DNA of 49,273 bases from Terriglobia bacterium. GTDB lineage: Bacteria; Acidobacteriota; Terriglobia; 20CM-2-55-15. The position numbers and the translations under genes are program-made. Under the pieces are notes generated by a model. It was not told where the DNA came from, ran no database searches, and saw nothing but the letters and a program-made list of their open reading frames with translations. The stretch is taken from positions 1-49,273 of the forward strand of contig CAXWPJ010000008.1 in the NCBI GenBank assembly GCA_963664115.2. Reading direction: 5' to 3'. Shown here one piece after another: positions 9,665 through 46,705 of this stretch. Each line of letters opens with the position of its first letter. Position 1 is the stretch's first letter.

Positions 9665-10021
9665 GTGAAGGTGCACATACCCGGGCCCCTGCGATCCTAC
9701 ACCGCGGGCTTGCGCGTGGTTGAAGTCAAGGGAGAGACCCTAGCCGACCTGTTCCTTTCTCTGGATGACGCTTTCCCCGGTCTTCGGTTCCGGATTGTTG
9801 ACGAGCAAGACCGAATCCGGGAACACATCAAGATATTCGTCGACTCGGAACAACATAAAGAACTGTCCTTCACCGTGAACCCTCGCTCCGAGGTTCAGAT
9901 CGTCTGTGCGTTGAGTGGGGGACTCGACTGCGTCCATGGTCGAATAGCACCAATCATGAGCTGCTATAGTCAACGTTCATGTGTGGCCGATACACCGCCT
10001 CTGCAGCGCAAGCAGTCATAG
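9665..10021 (+). CDS. MoaD/ThiS ubiquitin-like protein with 32-aa extension after the GG motif
   Basis: VHIPGPLRSYT..FPGLRFRIVDEQDRIREHIKIFVD..ALSGG; GG ends at 9922 but the frame stays open to 10021; start may be GTG 9644 or 9665. Confidence 0.8.
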   Translation: MKVHIPGPLRSYTAGLRVVEVKGETLADLFLSLDDAFPGLRFRIVDEQDRIREHIKIFVDSEQHKELSFTVNPRSEVQIVCALSGGLDCVHGRIAPIMSCYSQRSCVADTPPLQRKQS

Positions 10022-10620
10022 AGGACTACTTCGGCGCTGAATTTTCTGAAACCCACATTCCGTCCTACAACGCCAGCCCGGGTCAGCACCTTCCGGCTAT
10101 TCTCGACACAGAGCCCGGAAAGATTGTCTCTGTGTTGTGGGGGATAAAGCCGTCCTGGGGGAAACATCCGAGCCGCCTCCTGATAAACGCGCGATCAGAG
10201 ACTGTCAACCAACGCCCGACGTTTCGGCAGTCTTTCCAGAAGCGCAGATGCCTGATTGTTGCTGACGGATTTTACGAGTGGCAGTCCACGAAAGACGGTA
10301 AGCAGCCGTTCAGGATAATGCTGAAGACTGGGGAGCCCTTTGCATTTGCCGGTATCTGGAAAGAATTCGACGGTCTGCCTGCCTACGTGATCCTGACCAC
10401 GGAGGCCAACCGTGTGATGCGGACTATCCATGAGCGGATGCCGGTCATCTTAGAGCGTGGGCAACTGGTGACCTGGCTCGATACTGACCTGCCGGAGGGC
10501 GATGCTCTGGATTTGCTGTGTCCCTATCCCGAGGACGCGATCACTGCTTACCCGGTCTCCCGGGCCGTGAACAGTTCGAAGAACCAGTCTTCGGATTTGA
10601 TCGAACCTCAGAGTTCCTGA
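9979..10620 (+). CDS. SOS response-associated peptidase (SRAP/YedK/HMCES family)
   Basis: MCGRY N-terminus, YNASP, INARSET, RCLIVADGFYEW, IHERMPVIL. Confidence 0.95.
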   Translation: MCGRYTASAAQAVIEDYFGAEFSETHIPSYNASPGQHLPAILDTEPGKIVSVLWGIKPSWGKHPSRLLINARSETVNQRPTFRQSFQKRRCLIVADGFYEWQSTKDGKQPFRIMLKTGEPFAFAGIWKEFDGLPAYVILTTEANRVMRTIHERMPVILERGQLVTWLDTDLPEGDALDLLCPYPEDAITAYPVSRAVNSSKNQSSDLIEPQSS

Positions 10621-10649
10621 TGATCTTCAGAGCCATCGCTCCTTAAATT

Positions 10650-11068
10650 GGATTGCAGTAGTGATAAAGTCTTATAAGCCACTGCAATCCGGTGCATGCT
10701 GGCGGGAACTCACGAAATCCATCGCCTCCAGAGGTAGGGCAGTATTGTGAAGTTGATCATGACCACTGCGATCCAAATCTTGCTAGAGGTAATATCGTGA
10801 TTACACTACTGCGATCCGAGCCTGAATAACACCGGATCAAAAATACCAGCGCCATCGTTAGATCGCAGTAGTAAATCATTAGAAATAACTACTGCGGTTC
10901 ATGTCGTGCTAGATCCTAGTTTATAAATTTCGCTACTGCAAATCGAGGTACTCTGATTCTGACCCACGAATGGATGGCCTCCCGTCGGACCACGGTAGTA
11001 TATTATTATTATCGAATACTGCATTTCAGACCATGCTAGAGCTTAGACGTGAAATTAACTACTGATCC
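10650..11068. repeat. Array of seven ~31-bp boxes in a ~127-bp higher-order tandem repeat
   Basis: ACTGC/ACTGA right arms at 10681, 10765, 10808, 10891, 10935, 11018, 11061; left arms GCAGT/GCTAG/ACGGT 26 bp upstream (27 in box 5). Confidence 0.85.
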
Positions 11069-11849
11069 GACCAAGAGGACACCAGATCTCGGGCTCGTCT
11101 TTTGCACTCCTGCGGGCGTCAAGAACGTCGAGATCAAGAACGAAGTGATCGTCGGAGAGTGGACGGATGAAGACCTTTTACTGACGCACCAATTCGAAAG
11201 AAGAGGAGTGATCGCAGAGGAGTTTGTCAGTTGTTCGAGCGATCCAGAACGCGTTGCCGAGTTTACAAAGAAGTACGGCCCTTTGTTTTTCGAGGAGAAA
11301 CCGAATTGGGTCCGAGAATATTTTGGAGCCACCTACACGGCTTTCTTTGAACGGATCAAGCCCTTGCGAGGGGTCGCTCTTTCCGATACTGCTGAGGTGG
11401 ATCGGCAGTTTCCAGATCGGCAAAAACCCTTCGAAGTCGATATAAGGGAATGGCTCTCGGCCCAAACCGGTTTTCGGAATACCTGGAGCGTCATCAGTGC
11501 ATGGCCGAAAGGCAGAGAGAAAGCCATGCCTATCATCGGAACGCTTCCGGGTGAGGAATTTCGTTTAGTCGATGGGCAACTCACATTTCGAACCGCAGAC
11601 CTTCACCGCTTCTTGCTTTTGGATCTGTTTTCAGTTGCTAGTGAACGCATACGAGTCTGCAGACGCACTGACTGCGACAAAGTTCCCTATTTCATCGCCG
11701 CCCACCTTGGACAGTGGTATTGCTCAAGAATGTGCTCCGACTGGGCACAGCGCGAACATCGGAGGAAGTGGTGGGCGAAAAACGGCAAGGAAATGCGCGA
11801 GCGGCAGAACCTAGCAAAGAAGAAAAAAATAAAACAGACCAGGGGTTAG
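11049..11849 (+). CDS. Hypothetical protein with C-terminal CGNR-like C4 zinc finger and basic tail (putative DNA-binding)
   Basis: C-x4-C-x15-C-x3-C then Arg/Lys-rich helix; FTKKYGPL motif; GTG start uncertain. Confidence 0.7.
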   Translation: MKLTTDPTKRTPDLGLVFCTPAGVKNVEIKNEVIVGEWTDEDLLLTHQFERRGVIAEEFVSCSSDPERVAEFTKKYGPLFFEEKPNWVREYFGATYTAFFERIKPLRGVALSDTAEVDRQFPDRQKPFEVDIREWLSAQTGFRNTWSVISAWPKGREKAMPIIGTLPGEEFRLVDGQLTFRTADLHRFLLLDLFSVASERIRVCRRTDCDKVPYFIAAHLGQWYCSRMCSDWAQREHRRKWWAKNGKEMRERQNLAKKKKIKQTRG

Positions 11850-11858
11850 GAACTAAGG

Positions 11859-11951
11859 GACGGAGACCTAATTCAATATGACCTCATCTGGTGAGATCCC
11901 TTACGCGGTGACAGCCCCGAATTTGGTCTCCGTCATCTATACCTCGTCCCC
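11859..11951. repeat. REP-like GGGGAC/GACGGAGACC palindromic element
   Basis: GACGGAGACCTAATTC (11859-11874) pairs with GAATTTGGTCTCCGTC (11919-11934); related arms at 12840-12871 and 17773-17797. Confidence 0.7.
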
Positions 11952-13351: not shown

Positions 13352-14508
13352 CTAGTGTACCCCGCTCGAAGTAATGTAACTAAAATAGCTTTCCAACGTC
13401 CAATAGAGAATGAGGAAAGCACCGACCATTGAATTGGATGACAAGCAGCGGATGGAGTTGGAGCGACTGAGTCGAAGCCGGAGTACATCGGTCCGGTTGG
13501 CGGAACGATCCCGAATTGTATTACTGGCCGCTGAAGGTCGGAACAATTATGAGATCGCCGCCCGCTTGGAGATCACGCGCCAGAAAGCGGGCCGCTGGCG
13601 CAATCGTTTTGTGGAACAGGGCTTGGCTGGGATCGAAAAGGATGCGCCGCGAAGCGGACGGATTCCCACGATCAGTCGCCGGAAGCGAGCCCGGATCGTC
13701 AAGAAGACACTGGAAGAGAAGCCCCCGAACGCGACGCACTGGAGTCGGGCCTCGATGGCGAAGGCCGTTGGCGTGAGCGAGTCCACGGTCGGGAAAATCT
13801 GGCGGGTCCATGGACTGAAGCCTCATCTGTCACGAACCTTCAAACTATCCAACGACAAACGATTCGCCGAAAAGCTGGAGGATGTGGTCGGTCTGTATCT
13901 GAGCCCACCGGAAAACGCCATTGTCTTGTCCTGCGATGAGAAGAGCCAGATGCAGGCCCTGGACCGCACGCAACCCGGGTTACCTCTGAAGAAGGGGCGG
14001 TGTGGCACCATGACCCACGATTACAAACGTAACGGGACAACCACGCTTTTCGCCGCGCTCAACATCCTGGACGGTTCGGTCATCGGAACCTGCATGCCAA
14101 AGCATCGCCATCAGGAATGGATCCGGTTTCTGAATCAGATCAAACGCGCCATGCCGAAAGATAAGGAGATCCACATTATTTGCGACAACTATGCGACTCA
14201 CAAACATCAGAAAGTCGTCAACTGGCTCAAGCGTAACAAGCGTTTTCATGTGCACTTCACGCCAACCAGTGCGTCGTGGCTCAACATGGTCGAGCGCTTT
14301 TTCCGGGATCTGTCCGAGCAACGACTCCGGCGTGGCGTTTTCCGCTCGGTCCCCGAGTTGATCCAGGCCGTGGAGGACTACCTCGCTCGTCACAATGAAG
14401 ACCCGAAACCCTTCATCTGGACTGCAACGGCTTCCGACATCCTTGCTAAAGTCCAGCGCGGCCGGCGAAATCTTGATAAGTTACAGTCTGTTTAACGGGG
14501 ACCACTAG
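13352..14508 (+). mobile_element. IS630-family insertion sequence
   Basis: Imperfect TIRs CTAGTG..CCCG..TGTAACT at both ends, CTAG (TA) target, intact transposase. Confidence 0.9.
13410..14495 (+). CDS. IS630 family transposase
   Basis: HTH N-terminus; DEKSQMQAL, THDYKRNGT, DNYATHK, SWLNMVER DDE motifs. Confidence 0.96.
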   Translation: MRKAPTIELDDKQRMELERLSRSRSTSVRLAERSRIVLLAAEGRNNYEIAARLEITRQKAGRWRNRFVEQGLAGIEKDAPRSGRIPTISRRKRARIVKKTLEEKPPNATHWSRASMAKAVGVSESTVGKIWRVHGLKPHLSRTFKLSNDKRFAEKLEDVVGLYLSPPENAIVLSCDEKSQMQALDRTQPGLPLKKGRCGTMTHDYKRNGTTTLFAALNILDGSVIGTCMPKHRHQEWIRFLNQIKRAMPKDKEIHIICDNYATHKHQKVVNWLKRNKRFHVHFTPTSASWLNMVERFFRDLSEQRLRRGVFRSVPELIQAVEDYLARHNEDPKPFIWTATASDILAKVQRGRRNLDKLQSV

Positions 14509-16357
14509 TCCCTGAACAAGCGTGATTGACGAGGAAATGATAGTGCAATAAGAGCGGAAGTACCCGAAATGCCCCCTCTCCGTGCGAAAAAAACCTTGAA
14601 CAGATTCTTCGGAAAAGGAGGCATTTCAGATGAACGATTATACGCGCAAGAACATGAGGAACCGCAAGCGGCGAATCGAACGTCGGCTTGGGGACCGGCA
14701 TTGGACGGATCAGGTAGAGCCGATGTTTTCGGCGAGCAACATTCAGTACGAGATGGGAGAGCGGACGCGGGGCACATCGGTTGGTGGTATCGGGACGATG
14801 CAACTGGTGGCGCGGCGGACCGGGCTGATCGAAGCCATCGACAAGGGCGTGCATGTGTTGAAGCGGCACCTGCCGTATCACGAGTCGGATCACGTGCTGA
14901 ACATCGCCTACAACGCCTTGAGCGGAGGAACGTGCCTGGAAGACATCGAACTGCGGCGCAACGATGCGGTGTATCTGGATGCGCTGGGAGCGCAACGGAT
15001 TCCGGATCCGACGACGGCGGGAGACTTCTGCCGGAGATTCGAGGCCGACGACGTGGAGTGTCTGATGGAGGCAACCAATCAAGTCCGGCTCGGAGTCTGG
15101 CGACAGCAACCGGCGGCGTTTTTCGAAGAAGCGGTGTTGGACGCGGACGGGACACTGGCCGAAACCACGGGGGAATGCAAGCAAGGGATGGACGTGGCCT
15201 ACGACGGGACGTGGGGATATCACCCGCTGATGATCTCGCTGGCCAACACCGCCGAACCGCTGTATCTGGTCAATCGTAGCGGCAACCGGCCGTCGCATGA
15301 AGGAGCCGCGGTCCGGTTCGACCAAGCCATCGCATTGTGCCGGCATGCGGGGTTTCGCCAGATCCTGCTGCGCGGGGACACGGACTTCAGCCAGACCCGG
15401 CATCTGGACGGATGGGACGACCAGCAGGTGGGTTTCATATTCGGGATTGACGCGATGGCGAACCTGAAGGCCCGGGCCGATGAACTGGAGCCGCGCCAGT
15501 GGAAGCGCCTGGAACGGCCCGCGAAATACGACGTGGCGACCGAACCGCGCCAACGTCCCGACAACGTGAAGGAAGAGATCGTTCGGCAGCGCGGTTTCGA
15601 CAATATCCGCTTGCAGGGTGAGGATGTGGCCGAGTTTCGGTATCGACCCGGAGCCTGCGATCGGGACTACCGTGTCGTCGTGGTGCGGAAGAATCTGTCG
15701 GTGGCCAAAGGAGAGCAGGTGTTGTTTGACGACATCCGGTACTTCTTCTACATTACCAACCGTTCGGATCCGGCCGACCAGATTGTGATGCGTGCCAATC
15801 AACGGTGCAATCAGGAGAATCTCATTGAGCAGTTGAAGAACGGCGTTCAGGCGTTGCGGATGCCGGTCGGAGATCAGACCAGCAACTGGGCCTACATGGT
15901 GATCGCGTCACTGGCCTGGACACTGAAAGCGTGGTTTGCATTGCTGCTTCCCGAAACCGGACGTTGGGGCCAAAAATATCAGGCTGAGAAGCAAACCGTG
16001 CTGCGCATGGAGTTCAAAACCTTCTTGAACGCTTTCATGCTTGTGCCGTGCCAACTCGTGCGCACCGGGCGGCGCATTCTGTTCCGGATCCTGGCCTGGA
16101 ACCGGTGGTTGCCGGTCTTGTTCCGCGGGGTGGATGTGTTGCGTCAGCCTCTGCGATGTTGACCCGATCATGACTCTGAGCCCGGGCGATCGAGGTCCCG
16201 GTTTCTGTCAACCGTCCAACACCAGCGAGGCTGAACTGAAACAGATTCAACAGAAACTCGATACCTGGAACAGGCCATCCGGGAACGGGATTCTATGCCT
16301 CGAATTCTATCGGCGCGAACTGGGCCTCGGCGGACTGGTTATGCGCTTGTTTTGGGA
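14509..16357 (+). mobile_element. IS1380-family insertion sequence
   Basis: TIRs TCCCTGAACAAGCG / CGCTTGTTTTGGGA flanked by CTAG on both sides. Confidence 0.88.
14630..16162 (+). CDS. IS1380 family transposase
   Basis: IPDPTTAGDFCRRF, LDADGT, GYHPL, LRGDTDF, RCNQENLIEQLK motifs; GGAGG RBS. Confidence 0.92.
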   Translation: MNDYTRKNMRNRKRRIERRLGDRHWTDQVEPMFSASNIQYEMGERTRGTSVGGIGTMQLVARRTGLIEAIDKGVHVLKRHLPYHESDHVLNIAYNALSGGTCLEDIELRRNDAVYLDALGAQRIPDPTTAGDFCRRFEADDVECLMEATNQVRLGVWRQQPAAFFEEAVLDADGTLAETTGECKQGMDVAYDGTWGYHPLMISLANTAEPLYLVNRSGNRPSHEGAAVRFDQAIALCRHAGFRQILLRGDTDFSQTRHLDGWDDQQVGFIFGIDAMANLKARADELEPRQWKRLERPAKYDVATEPRQRPDNVKEEIVRQRGFDNIRLQGEDVAEFRYRPGACDRDYRVVVVRKNLSVAKGEQVLFDDIRYFFYITNRSDPADQIVMRANQRCNQENLIEQLKNGVQALRMPVGDQTSNWAYMVIASLAWTLKAWFALLLPETGRWGQKYQAEKQTVLRMEFKTFLNAFMLVPCQLVRTGRRILFRILAWNRWLPVLFRGVDVLRQPLRC

Positions 16358-46263: not shown

Positions 46264-46289
46264 GGGTTCCTCTCCCTCGAAAGGTTATT

Positions 46290-46455
46290 CCCTCGGGAGG
46301 TCTCCTGACTCGACGACACTGTACGGGATAGCGCCTTCCCGCCGGCTTCTTAGCGGCAGTGGCTGTTGCGTGAGAAATTGTCGTCTTACAGTTGCGGGGC
46401 AGTAGCGGCATCTCACCGCTTTCCCTCATCCGAAGTTCACCGGAATCATATCAGG
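46290..46455 (-). promoter_or_regulatory. Cobalamin riboswitch
   Basis: Minus strand GGGAAAGCGGTGAGATGCCGCTACTGCCCCGCAACTGT..GCCACTG..GGGAAGG..AGTCAGGAGACCT; boundaries approximate. Confidence 0.93.
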
Positions 46456-46705
46456 AAAACCGGTCGCGTCCACTTGAAATAGGACAGGCGGGACCTGGCT
46501 ACCGTATATAATTCTGCGCTCAGGTATGACTTTGAACGCCTGAGTGAGTGTAGAGTGTAAGAATTCAACACGAAGACACGAAGGAAAACTCATATTTCAG
46601 TCTTCTTCGTGCCGCTTCGTTCCCTTCGTGCCTTCGTGTTGAAATCCGATCGCTTATGTGGCGGCTGTCTTCGCACCGCTTGCGGCTCGATTGGAGGTTT
46701 CCTCG

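What the first reader, a model, noticed from the sequence alone, without database searches (positions are those of the whole stretch)
11035..11849. Uncharacterised CGNR-like zinc-finger protein whose start codon lies inside the last array box
Seen: a 266-aa ORF with an N-terminal domain I do not recognise (FTKKYGPL), a C-x4-C-x15-C-x3-C finger and a very basic tail. Its GTG (11049) sits within box 7. Known: CGNR/ABATE-type fingers are putative nucleic-acid binders. Inference: this is the cognate reader of the array (autoregulation or array-loaded effector), forming a compact SRAP + array + Zn-finger system, possibly a relic or cargo of an integrative element.
Basis: partly seen in the sequence, partly recalled or inferred. 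Interest (0 to 1): 0.7.

Follow-up and report, generated by a model that had tools for sequence, protein, structure and literature searches.

The report
Orphan zinc-finger repressor with operator array
A zinc-finger gene whose relatives mostly sit in the regulator slot of small tRNA-integrated mobile elements lies here without those partner genes, behind seven evenly phased DNA palindromes that are likely its own binding sites and would let it switch itself off, which gives this unstudied protein family a testable DNA target.

Summary
There is a real 266-aa gene with a C-x4-C-x15-C-x3-C finger, and its GTG lies inside the last of seven 31-32-bp palindromic boxes (127-bp period, all in helical phase). 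Its best structural match is Jann_2411 (ABATE + CGNR finger, Z 7.7).

Of 30 related loci, 24 have an integrase downstream, 23 a divergent excisionase-type HTH and 21 a tRNA: the repressor slot of satellite-like elements. The half-site of boxes 3, 5 and 7 is the top motif at those gene starts (15 of 30 loci; 2 of 64 control promoters). A 36%-identical homolog, found by protein alone, has one perfect box covering a sigma-70-like promoter and a partial box over its start codon. In strain contigs the arms are conserved (3 of 84 positions vary) while the cores drift (17 of 96).

The boxes are therefore probably operators, amplified in tandem, and autorepression is the likely mechanism. Binding was not tested. 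An RNA-loaded effector is unlikely.

The parts
11049..11849 (+). 266-aa ABATE/CGNR-like zinc-finger protein; likely DNA-binding autorepressor from the regulator slot of integrative elements
11658..11735 (+). Codons of the C204-C229 treble-clef-type finger, followed by a predicted 39-residue basic helix (227-265)
   Evidence: (C204, C209, C229 invariant and C225 at least 90% conserved in 129 sequences)
10655..10685 (.). Box 1, type A/A, longest palindrome; a strain variant at 10680 perfects the right arm
10739..10769 (.). Box 2, type A/A
10782..10812 (.). Box 3; left arm is the family-wide TGCTAGA half-site
10865..10895 (.). Box 4, perfect GCAGTAG-N17-CTACTGC
10908..10939 (.). Box 5, TGCTAGA left arm, 18-nt core
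10992..11022 (.). Box 6; its core holds a -10-like TATTAT (7 of 12 promoter match, below the scanner's cut-off) at the position where L189 has a 10 of 12 promoter
11035..11065 (.). Box 7; contains the GTG start codon
10621..11855 (.). Whole lineage-specific insert (array + gene), absent at the syntenic site of G001 and G004; ends approximate
9979..10620 (+). SRAP gene; resident host gene, not part of the insert
11859..11934 (.). Host inverted repeat, present directly after SRAP in congeners; right boundary of the insert

Best explanation
The gene encodes a predicted ABATE/CGNR-fold zinc-finger protein that likely binds the seven upstream palindromes as a dimer and would repress its own promoter, and it is probably an orphaned master regulator of a satellite-like integrative element. 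Shown: the gene, the boxes, their phase, their conservation, the family's neighbourhoods and the empty site in congeners. Inferred: one finger-plus-basic-helix per 7-bp arm across a 17-18-bp A+T-rich spacer; box 6 covers the promoter and box 7 the start codon, giving negative autoregulation; the upstream boxes are old tandem copies of a 127-bp promoter/operator unit, kept because they tighten or buffer repression; integrase and excisionase were lost or never came along. Why the cassette is kept is least certain. The likeliest reason is in-trans repression of incoming related elements.
For: Fold: the top hit in both PDB searches is 3H0N (Z 7.7, rmsd 4.2, 135 aligned, model 45-241, next hit Z 5.1; Foldseek E 0.21). 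38 of 129 family members match zf-CGNR at E<=0.01. Slot: of 30 discovery loci, 24 have an integrase downstream, 23 a divergent HTH and 21 both; of 15 held-out loci, 10, 8 and 7. A tRNA is present in 21 of the 30. G017 adds a primase/helicase and terS. Motif: TCTAGCA/TGCTAGA is the top de novo 7-mer at gene starts (22 of 9,771 words, 15 of 30 loci, against 6 of 86,548) and equals the left arm of boxes 3, 5 and 7. It lies upstream of 12 of 23 HTH genes paired with the finger gene against 2 of 64 unpaired ones; two or more CTAG occur in 18 of 23 against 5 of 64, with modal spacing 26 bp against 25-26 in the boxes. Independent homolog L189 (36% identical) has one perfect GCAGTAG-N18-CTACTGC in its 119-bp leader (2 of 200,000 shuffles), over a 10 of 12 sigma-70 match, and a second right arm 44 bp on over its start codons. 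Held-out L049 also has its ATG inside a box. Selection: in four runs' contigs all boxes persist at about 92% identity; variable positions are 3 of 84 in arms, 17 of 96 in cores and 19 of 193 in linkers (Fisher P 0.002, arms against cores). Duplication: linkers 1 and 3 align better than all 2,000 shuffles.
Against: No binding or expression data. The window protein itself has no Pfam or NCBIfam hit, and Z under 8 can reflect a common arrangement (note). The exact 7-mer recurs in only 1 of 15 held-out loci and 0 of 8 held-out loci with an HTH. It is not significantly clustered on the tree (71 of 500 shuffles as low), though it goes with the WW-type helix (14 of 24 against 2 of 18; kin not independent). 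The two close same-family relatives L002 and L008 lack both exact arms. The GCAGTAG box rests on one independent locus. The promoter match at box 6 is weak. The strain contigs are one related lineage at depth 3-8, so the 39 variable sites are not independent events. No resident element carrying the family is present in G000 to be repressed.
Confidence: 0.65

Rival explanations
1. The protein binds the boxes, but the phased array is a structural platform (centromere-like, looping or activating) rather than a repression device.
For: The seven boxes are in helical phase at about 42- and 84-bp steps. A 42-bp duplication of a different half-site surrounds the start of another family gene, L019/L046. 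In E. coli PICIs the regulator AlpA is an activator (PMC6092414, passages).
Against: The single-box homolog has its box directly over a promoter and its start codon. The ORF list around the insert shows no recognisable partition or replication gene (only the nearest neighbours were scanned against Pfam).
Confidence: 0.12
2. The boxes are bound by a host factor or another element protein (Xis, integrase arm), and the finger gene is only linked to them.
For: One half-site is shared across proteins of about 30% identity, which is unusual for phage repressors (my knowledge). There is no significant clustering on the tree.
Against: HTH_17 promoters without the finger gene lack the motif (2 of 64), and 29 of the 65 before dereplication had an integrase in the locus. 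Outside the array G000 has no excess of boxes (5 at gap 17 and 7 at gap 18, against 3-12 at other gaps). The boxes persist where no Xis or integrase remains.
Confidence: 0.1
3. Gene and array are neutral debris of a decayed element, and the repeats are slippage products.
For: There is no integrase or Xis and the insert is lineage-specific. One cluster member has an aberrant C-terminus (P0010) and one X17 contig has a stop at codon 146.
Against: The arms are conserved while cores drift. Units only 43% alike still keep their arms and spacing. Full-length proteins exist at 96, 78, 76 and 37% identity.
Confidence: 0.09
4. The array is transcribed into hairpin RNAs whose 17-nt loops guide or load the protein.
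For: Both strands fold better than shuffles (z -2.9 and -3.9), and the loops differ between boxes.
Against: Any DNA palindrome folds well. In the + strand MFE, boxes 2 and 3 pair with each other rather than as units. Loops change by point substitution, with no unit gained or lost in 4 runs. The homolog's single loop is its -10 element. There is no Rfam match.
Confidence: 0.04

Closest known systems
Jann_2411 / DUF1470, ABATE (PF07336) + zf-CGNR (PF11706), PDB 3H0N (PMC2954205; parts 2 and 3 of 4 read)
   Same: Best structural match over both domains (Z 7.7, 135 residues). Four-Cys treble-clef-type finger followed by a basic helix. The paper proposes a dimeric transcription regulator and reports no DNA target in the parts read.
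   Different: 13% identity. No Pfam hit for this protein and no ABATE hit in 129 members. The CGNR motif is replaced by CSDW. It is 266 rather than about 180 aa, with an extra predicted N-terminal beta-hairpin and a longer C-terminal helix. It occurs in mobile elements rather than beside stress genes.
PICI/SaPI master repressor Stl/Rpr (PMC6092414, passages; 10.1101/2021.09.07.459249, abstract and section 8)
   Same: In the family, the same slot: co-directional with int and divergent from xis and pri/rep, with terS in one element. Several palindromic operators overlap the promoter, as SaPI1 Stl has 4.
   Different: A zinc finger rather than an HTH repressor. Arms are 17-19 bp apart rather than 3 bp. 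In this window int, xis, pri and an att tRNA are missing. Repression and helper-phage induction are untested.
Plasmid centromere arrays such as F sopC
   Same: Phased palindromes at about 43-bp steps next to the gene of a DNA-binding protein.
   Different: Chromosomal; no partition ATPase recognised nearby; the array is upstream and overlaps the promoter and start codon; it is absent from the other family loci examined.

Membership tests
zf-CGNR (PF11706) | Score above the Pfam gathering cut-off (24 bits) | tested here: not met
   No hit for the window protein at E<=1. 38 of 129 relatives hit at E<=0.01. 1 of 24 locus proteins passes the cut-off (L032, 25 bits).
zf-CGNR (PF11706) | Two Cys in a knuckle plus two Cys at the start of the C-terminal helix | tested here: met
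   C204, C209, C225, C229 with helix 227-265 in the model
zf-CGNR (PF11706) | CGNR-type motif in the C-terminal helix | tested here: not met
   CSDW here; family consensus CAxWAQR
ABATE (PF07336) | Tandem helix-beta-hairpin-helix fold | tested here: inconclusive
   Top hit 3H0N, Z 7.7, rmsd 4.2, chain 5-184 aligned; Foldseek E 0.21; no Pfam ABATE hit in 129 members
ABATE/CGNR regulators | Homodimer | not tested
DUF6076 (PF19553) | Pfam profile match | tested here: not met
   Not among the hits for 129 members at E<=0.01 or 24 locus proteins at E<=0.05; I did not check separately that this Pfam copy holds the model
PICI-like element (this window) | Integrase, xis, primase/rep and att site around the regulator | tested here: not met
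   Neighbours are SRAP and a metallo-beta-lactamase-fold gene; no tRNA in the window
PICI-like element (family relatives) | Regulator co-directional with int and divergent from xis/pri | tested here: met
   Both neighbours in 21 of 30 discovery and 7 of 15 held-out loci; primase/helicase and terS in G017
PICI master repressor | Represses the element and is relieved by a helper-phage protein | not testable with these tools
   Needs bench work
CRISPR-like or guide-RNA array | Conserved repeats with exchanged spacers; known RNA family | tested here: not met
   No unit gain or loss, only point changes, in 4 runs; no Rfam match in the array
Known anti-phage defence systems | PADLOC profile match | tested here: not met
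   0 of 129 members at E<=0.001

The most novel reading that the evidence does not exclude
The insert is a domesticated immunity cassette. A captured satellite repressor silences incoming tRNA-integrating elements that carry the family half-site kept in boxes 3, 5 and 7. The phased seven-operator array stores or buffers the protein, so that a helper-phage anti-repressor or an incoming element flips the switch. Solo copies in its closest subclade (window, L011, possibly L189) would be repeated domestications.
Probability: 0.15. Interest if true: 0.75.

Novelty: new variant of a known kind. Interest (0 to 1): 0.5.

Why it matters
The family is large: 1,185 clusters at 50% identity and 62 of 401 sampled genomes of the class. 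It fills the master-regulator slot of satellite-like elements with a zinc finger instead of an HTH. Five library searches showed no paper, by title and abstract start, giving a DNA target or function for a CGNR-type protein; most subscription papers are not in that library. This locus offers seven natural variants of a predicted operator, with a matching promoter in a distant homolog, so one gel shift and one reporter assay would settle how ABATE/CGNR proteins read DNA. The logic (autorepression through several operators) is ordinary. The protein family, the wide-spaced operator and the orphaned, amplified state are what is new.

Tried and rejected
Protein-led scans: no confirmed relative in viral contigs, GTDB contigs or the first metagenome scan. 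The second metagenome scan gave 1 confirmed locus from 56 pattern matches. No tblastn match in phages or plasmids.

DNA-led scans: the two-box pattern gave 2 GTDB hits, neither near a family gene, and 0 viral hits.

No paralog and no second array in G000, and no excess of boxes elsewhere, so no host regulon. No array upstream or downstream at 45 genome loci (one locus too short downstream); L019 has a small 42-bp duplication.

TGCTAGA as an extended -10 element was considered. In L011 and L015 it lies just behind a TTGACT -35 of the divergent promoter and recurs in both orientations (read by eye), so it is disfavoured but not excluded.

One RNA run (X20) has short contigs over parts of the array and gene; this does not show transcription. 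The tree did not resolve whether motif and protein co-evolve. The Atlas hit to an 11% zf-CGNR cluster came with a low recognition value and was used only as a lead. The DNA upstream of P0002-P0004 could not be obtained. I did not search for targets of the 17-nt cores. No supplementary files were read.

Full report
Observation. The ORF 11049-11849 is as described. Its GTG is the first possible start in a 269-codon open frame and matches the starts of four homologs. Upstream lie seven 31-32-bp boxes of 7-bp arms around a 17-18-bp A+T-rich core, spaced 84/43/83/44/83/43, which is a 127-bp unit repeated about 3.3 times. All lie within 0.2 turn of one helical phase. All right arms are CTACTGC-like. 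Four left arms are the complement GCAGTAG (type A) and three (boxes 3, 5, 7) are GCTAGA(G/T) (type B). Both words are far above the genome rate. Box 7 contains the start codon. The genome has no paralog and no second array.

The protein. It has no Pfam or NCBIfam hit itself, but belongs to a family of 1,185 clusters, found in 62 of 401 sampled genomes of the class and 10 of 401 of the phylum. The taxon is probably Acidobacteriota, inferred from the taxa listed. In a 129-sequence alignment three of the four cysteines are invariant and the fourth nearly so, and 38 members match zf-CGNR weakly. The AlphaFold model (pLDDT 84) has 3H0N as top hit in both PDB searches, aligned over both domains (Z 7.7, rmsd 4.2, 135 residues; E 0.21). 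That paper (PMC2954205, parts 2-3 of 4 read) describes a dimer with a treble-clef finger and predicts DNA binding without naming a target. The protein works like an ABATE/CGNR protein but fails the Pfam membership tests.

Where the family lives. I took 30 non-redundant loci. I left out the window's own copies, two duplicates, one locus cut at a contig end (L028), and L005, which had no ORF call and went to the held-out set. An integrase follows in 24, a divergent HTH_17-type gene precedes in 23, and both occur in 21; in 15 held-out loci the counts are 10, 8 and 7. Those profiles were built from members of the same loci. Directly against Pfam, 16 of 21 downstream ORFs were phage integrases and 14 of 28 upstream ORFs HTH_17. 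A tRNA lies in 21 of the 30. One larger element adds a primase/helicase and a small terminase. This is the rpr/stl position of PICIs as described in PMC6092414 (passages), a paper that also shows the E. coli PICI regulator AlpA to be an activator.

The boxes are probably this family's operator. First, an unbiased word count around the 30 gene starts returned TCTAGCA/TGCTAGA as top 7-mer (22 of 9,771 words, 15 loci, against 6 of 86,548), which is the type B arm. For a control I fetched 85 HTH_17 loci; 17 had no call with my profile, 3 had the finger gene, and 64 distinct ones remained. The word occurs in 2 of 64 controls against 12 of 23 paired loci, two or more CTAG cores in 5 of 64 against 18 of 23, and the commonest CTAG spacing is 26 bp, matching the 25-26 bp within the boxes. 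Second, L189, found by protein patterns alone and 36% identical, has one perfect type A box with an 18-bp core in its 119-bp leader (2 of 200,000 shuffles). The box straddles a 10 of 12 sigma-70 match, and a second right arm lies 44 bp on, over the first codons, like boxes 6 and 7. Held-out L049 has its ATG inside a B/B box. Third, contigs of four runs span the array at about 92% identity with all boxes kept. Variable sites number 3 of 84 in arms, 17 of 96 in cores and 19 of 193 in linkers; the one change in an inner arm position perfects box 1. About five differences per contig were not listed, probably those near the ends of the aligned part, so I counted 10676-11048 only.

Against this: the exact 7-mer recurs in only 1 of 15 held-out loci, which are mostly more distant; the close relatives L002 and L008 have other palindromes; motif and tree are not significantly associated; and the window's own promoter match is weak (7 of 12; not reported).

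The array is a local amplification. Linkers 1 and 3 are homologous (better than 2,000 of 2,000 shuffles); linkers 1 and 2 are marginal (P 0.05) and 2 and 3 not significant. None of 45 genome loci shows a comparable array upstream or downstream and L189 has one full box. One locus (L019/L046) has a 42-bp duplication of a different half-site, with copies 26 bp apart, at its gene start. Earlier AI notes from this scan report N18-spaced palindromes and 42-bp arrays beside other CGNR genes, and the same repressor slot. They agree but are unchecked leads, not support.

SRAP is not part of it. In congeners G004 and G001 the SRAP gene is followed within 116 and 92 bp by the same inverted repeat and the same downstream gene, with no box word in the gap; G003 has its SRAP match on another contig. 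The array plus gene, about 10621-11855, is an insert with lower GC3 (0.57 against 0.64-0.67) and without integrase, Xis or tRNA. G297 (L011) is another solo copy: no integrase or HTH call in its locus and no tRNA in 20 kb.

Mechanism. Most likely a dimer places one finger and basic helix on each arm, box 6 blocks the promoter and box 7 the start region, and boxes 1-5 add phased sites that tighten or buffer autorepression (0.65). Multiple operators over a divergent promoter are known for SaPI1 Stl (section 8 of 10.1101/2021.09.07.459249). Rivals are a structural or activating platform (0.12), another binder (0.10), neutral debris (0.09) and guide RNA (0.04). The boldest reading not excluded is a domesticated immunity cassette against related elements (0.15). 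G000 has no resident element of the family and no excess of boxes elsewhere.

Verdict. Real and under apparent selection. It is a new variant of a known kind: an orphaned mobile-element regulator with an amplified operator region. Its value is a sharp, testable DNA target for a family on which searches showed no functional study. Interest 0.5.

Noticed in passing
L046 (G399), 989-1161 on the gene's strand: Nine-site cluster around the start of a family gene: ATCAAG half-sites 26 bp apart in a 42-bp tandem duplication, plus inverted copies; the integrase downstream is on the opposite strand. It may be a second, independent operator amplification with another half-site.
   Followed up: partly
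L011 / L186 (G297): The top-scoring GTDB relative is also a solo copy between host genes, with type B half-sites 60 bp apart and no integrase, HTH or tRNA detected.
   Followed up: partly
family loci L013, L015, L023, L025, L011: Recurrent three-site layout of CTAG cores about 35 and 26 bp apart (sum 60-62) between xis and the finger gene; the last site often encodes T-L-A with a CTA codon.
   Followed up: partly
window 11859-11934: Inverted repeat conserved in congeners; its 10-nt arm word occurs 24 times in G000, possibly a REP-like element.
   Followed up: partly
window 13410-14495 and 14630-16162: Two adjacent transposases (DDE_3 with HTH, and DDE_Tnp_1_4); the end of the first matches about two dozen other places listed for G000.
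   Followed up: no
window 9665-9950: ThiS/MoaD-like gene whose frame runs on past the Gly-Gly motif; related contigs show indels there.
   Followed up: no
G000 C9 about 1061560-1061670: Short tandem repeats of an A+T-rich unit of about 20 nt followed by one isolated type A half-site upstream of a gene.
   Followed up: no
window 46278-46459 (-): Cobalamin riboswitch.
   Followed up: no
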